From the UHGV virus genome UHGV-1558479: DNA of 11,478 nt. One strand, given 5' to 3'. Source of the stretch: a virus. The position numbers were made by a program. Shown in pieces: positions 1 to 1,407 of this stretch. Position 1 is the stretch's first letter; every line of letters begins with the position of its first letter.

Positions 1-1407
1 TCTACAGCTTTGTCAATGCTAGCGGTTCTGATATCAGTGTTACCTAAAACTATAAATTCACATTGGCGCTTGTTAGGAAGAGTTCCCAAAAATATAACGT
101 TCTCAATAATTTTTTCCTGCTGAATGTTATCATTGCTGAGATGTTGATATACAGCTTCAAGCTGTTTTGGCTCTCTAAAAACGATGCTAAAACCTTGGCT
201 TTTAAGTGTAAAAACTGTTTTATTTTCATGCAGATAATGAATGAATGCTCCATCATCATTATCCAAGCTTGCCTGAAATATTTTTCTGGCCTTATTAATA
301 GCTTTTGCTACTGGGGTTTCTTCATCGAATTCAAGAGGAGCATCAGGTCTAAACTCTTCAAGTACGAATCCGAAAGAACCACGGGCTGACGCGGTAATCA
401 TGAGATGATTATTTTCTATGTTTGGTATCTTGCCTGATGCAGGAAGTGGGCCATTGAAAGAGGTTGCCAAGTAAGCTATTGCATCATTAAAACAAGATAT
501 AGCTTTTGTTCCAAATACTGCTGAAATGCCATGCGTGCCAACTACTGTTGGGCCTCTAAAAGTTAACACAGCATGCGTAGGTTCATGTTCTCGAACGTCA
601 GCTTGTGAAATTAATCGCTCAACTTTCTCCAGACGGTCTTCTAAGCTTTTTCGGCTAATAGAATGACTTGTTGGCATATTTTTTAATAGATTACTTATTT
701 GCTCGCGCTCACTGAGAGCGAAAACATAATCATTACGATTCATTGTTTGACCCCCTCAGTAGTAGCCGAATTAAGTATAGTCATTGCCACAACATCAAGT
801 TGTGGGTTTAACGGGATTTGGATAAATCCCTTCCACGACAGATCGCGTCTATGTGCCCACATACTGTACCAATATACAGTCATTTCAACAAGCTCATGAC
901 TTGGTAGATTAAGTTCTTGGAAGTAGGAATCTACGAAAAACTCCTTCTTACCAAAATCATGATCAAATAGCTCTGGCTTTCTACCGATTACGATTGCATC
1001 ATTATCGCCATTACTGAATTGAAAAAAGGTCACAACATCGACATCATTCGGTGGCCTTTTTTCAATAAGTTCAATATGTTCTGTGAAGCTTCCATCTACC
1101 CACTGAAAACCTTCAACTAGCCCTGCTTGAGTGAGTGAAACACGAAAGTTAAGAAAACCCTTAAGGATTTTAATCCTTGCAGGGCTAAGCGAAAAAGTAC
1201 TAACAAAGCGTACTATATCCATTTTGTATGGGGAACGAGTATGGCTTGTAGGATCAGCCTCGTCTATTGGGGGGATTAACCCCATCTCATTCCATAGAGA
1301 GACAGTTGGTATACTCAATGCTTAACCTTTATAACGAACTGAATATTCGGCAAAATATTGTTTTTAGGTATTGGCTGCTGTGCTTGTCGGACGTTTATTT
1401 CGTGTCA

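What the first reader, a model, noticed from the sequence alone, without database searches (positions are those of the whole stretch)
1..1318. Uncharacterised two-gene cassette in the rexA/rexB position downstream of cI; candidate prophage defence or exclusion module
Lambda carries rexA-rexB immediately downstream of cI, co-transcribed with the repressor in the lysogen. Here that slot holds two unrelated genes on the cI strand (740..1318 and 1..743), translationally coupled by an ATGA stop/start overlap and more AT-rich by eye than the replication and nin genes. Neither product resembles RexA/RexB or any cI-adjacent exclusion protein I recognise; BstA was considered and rejected on architecture. 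Expression from the lysogenic repressor operon at a known accessory hotspot makes an abortive-infection or superinfection-exclusion role the leading hypothesis. The second gene is truncated by the window, so its full length and domains are unknown.
Basis: partly seen in the sequence, partly recalled or inferred. Interest (0 to 1): 0.85.

Follow-up and report, generated by a model that had tools for sequence, protein, structure and literature searches.

The report
Nucleotidyltransferase gene pair replacing lambda rexAB
In a lambda-immunity prophage, the repressor operon carries, in place of the classic rexA-rexB exclusion genes, a widespread but never characterised gene pair (a nucleotidyltransferase plus a partner with a predicted nucleic-acid-binding domain) that is a plausible but untested anti-phage module, and the copy in this window may be damaged.

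Summary
Two same-strand ORFs lie downstream of cI: 740..1318, and 1..743 cut by the window edge. They overlap in ATGA and have 38-41% GC against 47% for the rest of the window.

They are not Rex homologues (hhalign probability 0.2% or less). Gene A is a Pfam DUF6932 protein with an intact pol-beta nucleotidyltransferase signature (G76-S77, D92xD94, D130). Gene B belongs to an unnamed family of about 305-aa proteins with a basic C-terminal OB-like barrel.

The pair appears obligate. In 78 of 78 informative loci from bacteria and archaea, B directly follows A, and 60 of these share the same 4-nt overlap. About 15% of loci sit between hsdS and hsdR of type I restriction operons. In Enterobacterales the pair recurs directly downstream of three unrelated prophage repressors. 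Here it replaces rexAB exactly, from the cI stop to the lambda-like terminator; cI is 95% identical to lambda cI.

The pair is a divergent member of PADLOC candidate PDC-M63, which is catalogued but unvalidated; one knockout gave no phenotype. A defence role is plausible and the mechanism is unknown.

The window's gene B has an in-frame 54-bp deletion that removes a 99%-conserved arginine.

The parts
740..1318 (-). Gene A: 192-aa DUF6932 protein, a pol-beta-type nucleotidyltransferase. TTG start at 1318..1316, stop TGA at 742..740.
1..743 (-). Gene B: the partner gene, cut at its 3' end by the window edge, with ATG at 743..741. Relatives are 309 aa. The predicted protein has an N-terminal helical hairpin, a central alpha/beta region with the invariant RGSFGF motif, a helical region, and a basic C-terminal OB-like barrel.
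740..743 (-). ATGA overlap of the gene A stop and the gene B start, giving translational coupling.
   Evidence: Sequence. The same 4-nt overlap occurs in 60 of 78 homologous loci, and 74 of 78 overlap in some form.
244..251 (-). Junction of an in-frame 54-bp deletion in gene B relative to 8 complete E. coli genomes. Residues E165-R183 are replaced by a single G.
   Evidence: Alignments. The deleted segment includes R177, conserved in 99% of 79 partners, and L167, conserved in 87%. In the model it covers helix 164-170 and the start of helix 176-191.
1319..1404 (-). The 86-nt spacer between cI and gene A, with an AAGG Shine-Dalgarno sequence at 1326-1329. It has no terminator-like site and no significant RNA structure.
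   Evidence: z-score 0.73. The spacer is unrelated to the lambda cI-rexA spacer.
1405..2118 (-). cI repressor, the first gene of the inferred pRM operon. Its stop codon is the right-hand boundary of the swapped cassette.
   Evidence: HTH_3 and Peptidase_S24 domains. 95% identical to lambda cI. Similarity to lambda, HK97 and mEp234 begins at 1405-1409.
2119..2218 (.). OR / pRM-pR control region with lambda-like operators. It is the inferred source of lysogenic transcription of cI, gene A and gene B.
   Evidence: The sequence contains TATCACCGC...; a pR-like promoter is found at 2166..2194. The region is 91-92% identical to lambda and HK97. The pRM assignment is an inference from lambda biology.

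Best explanation
Genes A and B form a conserved, obligately paired and translationally coupled module. Gene A is a DUF6932 pol-beta-fold nucleotidyltransferase with a complete catalytic signature. Gene B is a soluble protein of about 305 aa whose basic C-terminal OB-like barrel probably binds nucleic acid. The pair belongs to the PADLOC candidate family PDC-M63.

In this lambda-immunity prophage the module has replaced rexA-rexB precisely, between the cI stop codon and the operon terminator. I therefore infer that it is transcribed with cI from pRM in the lysogen.

The most likely role is a lysogen-expressed anti-phage module of the exclusion or abortive-infection type. In this reading, which is inferred and not shown, the OB-fold partner senses or holds a nucleic-acid ligand or trigger, and the nucleotidyltransferase is the catalytic effector. 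The enzyme would add nucleotides to an RNA or DNA 3' end, to a nucleotide product, or to a protein such as its partner.

The copy in this window may be impaired by an 18-residue in-frame deletion in gene B.
For: Identity of the two proteins:
- Pfam DUF6932 scores 91 bits.
- G76-S77, D92xD94 and D130 are invariant, as are K124, the WSHRR motif and the WKG motif.

Obligate pairing:
- 78 of 80 GTDB loci carry the partner directly downstream on the same strand. The other two are cut by contig ends.
- 60 of 78 loci have the identical 4-nt overlap.

Association with defence:
- Among the two genes either side of the pair, the commonest Pfam families are type I R-M subunits: Methylase_S 12, N6_Mtase 7 and HSDR_N 12.
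- Explicit hsdS-[pair]-hsdR arrangements occur in L075, L084, L059 and L045. SIR2-like, MNT and YhcG genes lie alongside.
- L013 lies next to SMODS and DUF4238 genes.
- The Burkholderia partner hits PDC-M63B at 6.7e-7 and is homologous to the window family (hhalign probability 100%).
- PDC candidates were defined by embedding within known defence systems.

Prophage slot:
- The pair lies directly after a lambda-type cI here and in CE10.
- It lies after Rac-type repressors in Klebsiella and other Enterobacteriaceae.
- It lies after a Proteus cI.
- It replaces rexAB exactly, and the lambda-like terminator is retained.
- There is no terminator between cI and gene A.
Against: - No member of the family has a demonstrated function.
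- Deleting a PADLOC-called PDC-M63AB locus in a prophage of E. coli NILS69 changed nothing against 10 virulent phages (PMC12409345). I could not determine whether that locus is the same subfamily.
- The window-type gene B does not hit any PDC-M63B model directly.
- Most of the 78 loci have ordinary housekeeping neighbours.
- No recognisable toxic effector domain is present: no nuclease, transmembrane, HEPN or TIR domain.
- The window allele lacks the 99%-conserved R177.
- Transcription from pRM is inferred from lambda, not measured.
Confidence: 0.5

Rival explanations
1. The pair is a toxin-antitoxin or addiction module. One protein is toxic, for example the nucleotidyltransferase acting on tRNA as MenT and AbiEii do, and the other neutralises it. 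It would persist by stabilising the mobile elements that carry it (prophages, R-M islands) and would not act against phages.
For: The organisation is tight, obligate and translationally coupled. The pair occurs on mobile elements and also at scattered chromosomal sites with housekeeping neighbours. Nucleotidyltransferase-based toxin-antitoxin systems such as MNT-HEPN and AbiE/MenAT are established (general knowledge). The NILS69 deletion gave no defence phenotype.
Against: The NILS69 locus could be deleted, which argues against strong addiction. The window allele appears to carry a damaged partner beside an essentially intact nucleotidyltransferase, which would be lethal if the partner were an essential antitoxin. 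The partner has no HEPN motif and no DNA-binding antitoxin domain. Many toxin-antitoxin systems also act in defence, so this reading overlaps with the main one.
Confidence: 0.2
2. The pair has a non-conflict or phage-beneficial function, such as tailing, repair or modification of nucleic-acid ends, counter-defence, or tuning of lysogeny. It would then be a cargo moron and not an exclusion system.
For: A nucleotidyltransferase combined with an OB fold also fits end-processing or repair enzymes. Many loci lie among housekeeping genes, for example next to ilvNC in Bremerella. The family is broadly distributed, including in archaea.
Against: Type I R-M subunits are by far the commonest neighbours, and the pair sits inside those operons on the same strand. 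It repeatedly lands in the repressor-downstream accessory slot of unrelated prophages. Its distribution is patchy, as for accessory genes: only 8 of 5426 complete E. coli genomes carry this variant.
Confidence: 0.12
3. Whatever the family does, the copy in this window is a decaying, non-functional allele. Alternatively, the deletion is an assembly artefact.
For: A 54-bp in-frame deletion removes E165-R183, including R177 (99% conserved) and a confidently modelled helix. All 8 complete genomes carry the undeleted form. The only public contig with the window's exact gene A ends 7 nt past the junction, and up to that point it follows the undeleted reading.
Against: The reading frame is preserved. 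Gene A and the remainder of gene B are otherwise 99.8% identical to the intact copies. Loss of function has not been tested.
Confidence: 0.45
4. The two genes are highly diverged rexA and rexB homologues.
For: They occupy the same position, strand, two-gene layout and terminator as lambda rexAB.
Against: hhalign probability is 0.1-0.2% for every pairing tested. RexB is a 144-aa membrane protein (maximum hydropathy 2.39), while gene B is a soluble 309-aa protein (1.18). Gene A has a nucleotidyltransferase signature that I know of no report of in RexA.
Confidence: 0.01

Closest known systems
PADLOC phage defence candidate PDC-M63 (A+B), Payne et al. bioRxiv 10.1101/2024.01.29.577857
   Same: The architecture is the same: a DUF6932-like protein followed by a protein of about 309 aa. 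Gene A hits PDC-M63A at E 1e-9. A Burkholderia partner that hits PDC-M63B at 6.7e-7 is homologous to the window's gene B family over its full length. Relatives are embedded in type I R-M operons, as in the way PDC candidates were defined.
   Different: The window-type gene B is too divergent to hit any PDC-M63B model, so PADLOC v2 would probably not call this locus. The context here is a prophage repressor operon, not an R-M operon. PDC-M63 is itself only a prediction, and the single published knockout gave no phenotype.
Lambda RexA-RexB exclusion system
   Same: The genomic slot and transcriptional logic match. Both are two genes directly downstream of cI on its strand, ending at the same conserved terminator upstream of OL/pL.
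   Different: There is no sequence relationship. There is no membrane component like RexB. A nucleotidyltransferase catalytic signature is present instead.
MNT-HEPN (MntA/HepT) type VII toxin-antitoxin modules
   Different: Gene A is almost twice the size of a minimal MNT and has conserved N- and C-terminal extensions. The partner has no conserved Rx4-6H motif and no conserved histidine at all. It shows an OB-like barrel and not a HEPN bundle.
PrrC anticodon nuclease embedded in the EcoprrI type I R-M operon
   Same: In about 12 of 78 loci, relatives of the pair sit in the same place, between hsdS and hsdR on the same strand. This suggests a back-up module guarded by, or guarding, the restriction enzyme.
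   Different: The proteins are unrelated: no ABC ATPase and no anticodon-nuclease domain. The window's copy is in a prophage, not an R-M operon.
AbiE / MenAT nucleotidyltransferase toxin systems and nucleotidyltransferase-signalling systems (CBASS, Hailong)
   Different: There is no DUF1814/AbiEii Pfam match. There is no AbiEi-type regulator, no CBASS effector and no HalA-like membrane protein. The fold scores are too low to assign the protein to any of these families.

Membership tests
Pfam DUF6932 (PF22014) | Score above the Pfam gathering threshold over the full domain. | tested here: met
   91.1 bits against a cut-off of 27, covering residues 9-168 and 3-141 of 142 profile positions.
Pol-beta nucleotidyltransferase superfamily | A G[SG] motif followed by [DE]x[DE], plus a third carboxylate on a later strand. 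| tested here: met
   G76-S77, D92, D94 and D130 are invariant in 36 sequences and at least 95% conserved in 80.
Pol-beta nucleotidyltransferase superfamily | Structural similarity of the core to solved nucleotidyltransferases. | tested here: inconclusive
PADLOC PDC-M63 | Protein A matches a PDC-M63A model. | tested here: met
   PDLC04744 gives E 1.1e-9 at 36.5 bits, and PDLC04745 gives 6e-4. PADLOC's own thresholds were not available.
PADLOC PDC-M63 | The adjacent protein B matches a PDC-M63B model. | tested here: inconclusive
   The window/CE10-type partner has no hit at E<=10. The Burkholderia partner hits at 6.7e-7, and it is homologous to the window family over 299 columns (hhalign E 4e-52).
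Lambda RexA/RexB | Sequence homology to RexA or RexB. | tested here: not met
   hhalign probability is 0.1-0.2%.
Lambda RexA/RexB | A small polytopic membrane protein (RexB) as the second gene. | tested here: not met
   Maximum 19-residue hydropathy is 1.18 for gene B against 2.39 for RexB.
MNT-HEPN type VII toxin-antitoxin | A partner with a HEPN fold and a conserved Rx4-6H motif. | tested here: not met
AbiE / MenAT | An AbiEii/DUF1814-type nucleotidyltransferase with an AbiEi-type antitoxin encoded upstream. | tested here: not met
   DUF6932 is the only Pfam hit at E<=1. The gene upstream is cI, and the partner lies downstream.
BstA | A single large protein with an N-terminal KilA-N/ANT-like DNA-binding domain. 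| tested here: not met
   The locus has two genes, and neither has such a Pfam domain.
Anti-phage defence system (functional class) | Protection against phage infection when the system is expressed. | not testable with these tools
   Only association evidence is available. There is one negative knockout, of a PDC-M63AB locus in NILS69.

The most novel reading that the evidence does not exclude
The DUF6932/OB-fold pair is a mechanistically new kind of immune module, found in at least 568 species-representative genomes of bacteria and archaea. In it, a dedicated nucleotidyltransferase either tags an invader's or the host's nucleic acid, or makes an oligonucleotide ligand, under the control of an OB-fold sensor protein. 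No nuclease, pore or NADase effector would be involved. Lambdoid prophages have repeatedly recruited the pair as a functional substitute for RexAB in the repressor operon.
Probability: 0.3. Interest if true: 0.8.

Novelty: new variant of a known kind. Interest (0 to 1): 0.55.

Why it matters
If the pair is active, it would give a function to DUF6932 and to an unnamed partner family of more than 1400 clusters at 50% identity. Both families span many bacterial phyla and some archaea.

It would also validate one of the 145 untested candidates that PADLOC derived from embedding within known defence systems. It would show that the lambda cI-rexAB operon is a swappable defence slot with conserved flanks.

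A phage with near-lambda immunity in which only rexAB differs is an unusually clean genetic system for the test. Lambda rexAB could be replaced by the cassette and the two lysogens compared directly.

The practical caveat is that the allele in this window may be defective. Experiments should start from the intact CE10-type copy.

Tried and rejected
- Rex homology was rejected by profile comparison.
- BstA, AbiE/MenT, HEPN-MNT, CBASS and Hailong membership were rejected on missing defining domains.
- Sequence searches of the PDB gave nothing for either protein. The PPR hits for gene A are repeat artefacts with per-domain E-values above 500.
- The AlphaFold-database fold library was not available, so no whole-protein structural neighbour could be sought there.
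- Pfam scans of ten diverse partners gave only scattered sub-threshold hits with no consistency.
- Literature searches for DUF6932, for the RefSeq accessions, and for nucleotidyltransferase plus OB-fold defence pairs found nothing specific.
- The NILS69 paper has no supplementary text held, so I could not tell whether its PDC-M63AB locus is the same subfamily.
- An exact look-up of the 192-aa gene A found nothing. The 181-aa form found one metagenome scaffold that ends inside gene B, so the window could not be extended leftwards from its own source. CE10 was used instead.
- An internal promoter-like site near the 3' end of cI (1536..1509, minus strand) is within chance expectation.
- The cI-gene A spacer has no significant RNA structure.

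Full report
**Observation**

The window is the immunity-to-lysis segment of a lambdoid prophage. Its genes, in order:
- cI at 1405..2118 (-)
- cro at 2219..2419
- cII at 2558..2857
- an HTH_36 initiator at 3020..3796
- a Toprim/DnaB-like primase-helicase at 3904..5784
- NinB, an HNH endonuclease, NinG, a phosphatase, Q, a holin and a lysozyme

Downstream of cI on the same strand lie gene A (740..1318, 192 aa, TTG start) and gene B (ATG at 743, running off the left edge of the window; 247 codons present). The minus strand reads ATGA at 743-740, so the stop of A overlaps the start of B.

GC content is 0.381 for the gene B part and 0.406 for gene A, against 0.441 for cI and 0.471 for the rest of the window. 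No terminator-like site on the minus strand separates cI from gene A, and the 86-nt spacer has no notable structure.

The TTG start is supported by an AAGG sequence 7 nt upstream. It is also supported by P7 and W9, which lie upstream of the alternative Met12 and are conserved in at least 95% of 80 homologues.

**What the genes are**

Gene A is a clear member of Pfam DUF6932 (91 bits against a cut-off of 27). It also matches phrog_9194 and, more weakly, PADLOC PDC-M63A (E 1e-9).

Alignments of 36 and then 80 homologues show an invariant G76-S77, D92xD94 and D130. This is the catalytic signature of pol-beta-fold nucleotidyltransferases (NTases). Family-specific motifs accompany it: RSPY 28-31, GFQW 70-73, K124, YW 149-150, WSHRR 154-158 and WKG 162-164.

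Gene B has no Pfam, NCBIfam or PADLOC match. Its only match is phrog_18731.

Its full length, 309 aa, was recovered from E. coli CE10 and seven other complete genomes that carry the cassette at 99.8% identity. A word-indexed search found only 31 clusters. An exhaustive profile search found 1465 representative clusters, nearly all about 300 aa.

The residues conserved across the family are E12, R37, T61-F62-G64, G72, T117, the G122-S-F-G-F126 hairpin, D164, R177, F185, P241, R244, E247-F248 and G289.

The model (pLDDT 86) has four parts:
- an N-terminal helical hairpin
- an alpha/beta region
- a helical region
- a C-terminal beta-barrel

The barrel region is basic (pI 9.1) and the rest of the protein is acidic (pI 5.4). 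Neither protein has a transmembrane segment.

**The pair is an ancient, obligate unit**

A scan of one genome per GTDB species found at least 568 genomes with a DUF6932 relative. They span Proteobacteria, Planctomycetota, Chlorobi, Myxococcota, Acidobacteriota, a Clostridiales MAG and methanogenic archaea.

In the best 80 loci, 78 carry a gene B homologue immediately downstream on the same strand. The other two are cut by the contig end. In 60 of 78 loci the stop and start overlap by exactly 4 nt, as in the window, and 74 of 78 overlap in some form.

**Genomic associations**

Among the two genes on either side of the pair in these loci, the commonest Pfam families by far are type I restriction-modification subunits. 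Upstream these are Methylase_S (12), N6_Mtase (7) and HsdM_N (6). Downstream they are HSDR_N (12), SWI2_SNF2 (11) and T1R_D3 (11).

Individual loci confirm an hsdS-[A-B]-hsdR arrangement on one strand. Examples are L075 from Vandammella, L084 from Hydrogenophaga, L059 from Lautropia (with SIR2-like and MNT-like genes alongside) and L045 from an epsilonproteobacterium. This is the slot that PrrC occupies in EcoprrI. Another locus sits beside SMODS and DUF4238 genes.

In Enterobacterales the pair instead recurs directly downstream of prophage repressors of three unrelated kinds:
- a lambda-type cI, here and in CE10
- a Rac-type repressor of about 130 aa, in Klebsiella and other Enterobacteriaceae
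- a Proteus cI, with a DUF3024 gene in between (the partner is 42% identical)

Other loci have ordinary neighbours, for example ilvNC in Bremerella.

**The swap with rexAB**

The window's cI is 95% identical to lambda cI. DNA similarity to lambda, HK97 and mEp234 (91-92%) begins exactly at the cI stop codon.

In CE10 the similarity resumes immediately after gene B, at the GC-rich hairpin terminator that follows rexB in lambda. It then continues through OL/pL. The cassette has therefore replaced rexA-rexB precisely, between conserved flanks.

HK97 carries yet another two-gene insert (gp49/gp48) in the same slot. Profile comparisons with RexA and RexB are null, with probability of 0.2% or less.

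By analogy with lambda, the cassette should be transcribed with cI from pRM in the lysogen. This is an inference and was not measured.

**Relation to what is known**

PADLOC's PDC-M63 is a two-gene candidate with the same architecture. Gene A hits the A model. The Burkholderia partner hits the B model at 6.7e-7 and is homologous to the window's gene B family over its full length (hhalign E 4e-52, 34% identity). The window-type gene B itself is too divergent to hit.

PDC systems are 145 untested candidates proposed because they are embedded in BREX, DISARM or type I R-M loci (bioRxiv 10.1101/2024.01.29.577857). My neighbour analysis reproduces that signal independently.

The only experiment I found was a deletion of a prophage-borne PDC-M63AB locus in E. 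coli NILS69. It gave no change in sensitivity to 10 virulent phages (PMC12409345). No paper mentions DUF6932.

**Mechanism**

What is shown:
- an NTase with an intact active site
- an obligate, translationally coupled partner with a basic OB-like domain
- enrichment inside restriction operons and in repressor-downstream prophage slots

What is inferred: the pair is a lysogen-expressed defence or exclusion module. In that reading the OB-fold protein binds a nucleic-acid trigger or substrate, and the NTase supplies the chemistry. The chemistry could be tailing of an RNA or DNA end, synthesis of an oligonucleotide, or nucleotidylation of its partner as in MNT-HEPN.

I put the defence role at roughly one half, and any specific chemistry well below that. 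The main rivals are a pure addiction (toxin-antitoxin) role and a non-conflict role in nucleic-acid processing.

**A complication for this window**

Compared with all eight complete genomes, gene B in the window lacks 54 bp in frame, so that E165-R183 becomes a single G. The lost segment includes R177, conserved in 99% of 79 partners. It also covers a short helix and the start of the next helix in a confidently modelled region.

The only public contig that encodes the window's exact gene A, including its V123G substitution, is a metagenome scaffold. That scaffold ends 7 nt past the deletion junction, and up to that point it follows the undeleted reading.

The deletion may be a real, probably disabling allele. 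It may instead reflect a mixed population, or it may be an assembly artefact. I could not decide between these.

**Verdict**

The genes are not orphans. They belong to a large two-gene family, already flagged by computation but never characterised.

The finding is a good experimental lead and not yet a discovery. It is best pursued with the intact CE10 allele, in a lambda rexAB-replacement lysogen.

Noticed in passing
window 244-251 (gene B), compared with L001 9150-9390 and the end of L015: Gene B has an in-frame 54-bp deletion relative to 8 complete E. coli genomes. The only public scaffold with the window's exact gene A breaks 7 nt past the junction, and up to that point it follows the undeleted sequence. 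The endpoints lie in a short imperfect repeat (GAAGAATT / GAGCATT).
   Followed up: partly
window 950-952 (gene A codon 123): Gene A differs from the CE10 copy by one substitution, V123G, next to the 95%-conserved K124. Position 123 itself is not strongly conserved.
   Followed up: partly
window 1285-1318: Databases disagree on the start of gene A: 181 aa from ATG or 192 aa from TTG. The conserved P7 and W9 and an AAGG Shine-Dalgarno sequence support the longer TTG form.
   Followed up: yes
window 7561-8067: A 168-aa HNH_3 endonuclease ORF lies in the most AT-rich stretch of the window (GC 0.34 at 7501-8000), inside the nin region. It looks like a homing-endonuclease insertion. CE10 has a KilAC antirepressor gene among its nin genes (between ninF and a DUF1364 gene) and no HNH gene annotated there; the two regions were not aligned.
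   Followed up: partly
window 3020-5784: The replication module is not lambda O/P. It consists of an HTH_36 initiator-like protein and a 626-aa Toprim plus DnaB-like primase-helicase, even though the immunity region is nearly that of lambda.
   Followed up: partly
L001 8833-8854 (CE10, outside the window): The lambda terminator that follows rexB is conserved immediately after gene B, followed by lambda-like OL/pL. This marks the left boundary of the cassette swap.
   Followed up: yes
L006-L009 4614-4949 (Proteus prophages): In Proteus, a DUF3024 gene of 111 aa sits between cI and the DUF6932 pair, so the slot holds three accessory genes.
   Followed up: no
L059 4409-7890; L075 5682-6725; L013 5096-7557: In some relatives the pair shares an island with other defence-type genes. 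These include a SIR2_2 protein and an MNT-like domain (L059), a YhcG/DUF1016 nuclease (L075), and DUF4238 plus SMODS genes (L013).
   Followed up: partly
L014 1667-2571 (HK97): HK97 carries a different two-gene insert (gp49, gp48) between cI and pL, so this slot has at least three alternative occupants among phages with similar cI genes.
   Followed up: no
window 6977-7420: A 147-aa ORF with no Pfam match lies between the ninE/ninF-like region and the HNH gene. Its function is unknown.
   Followed up: no
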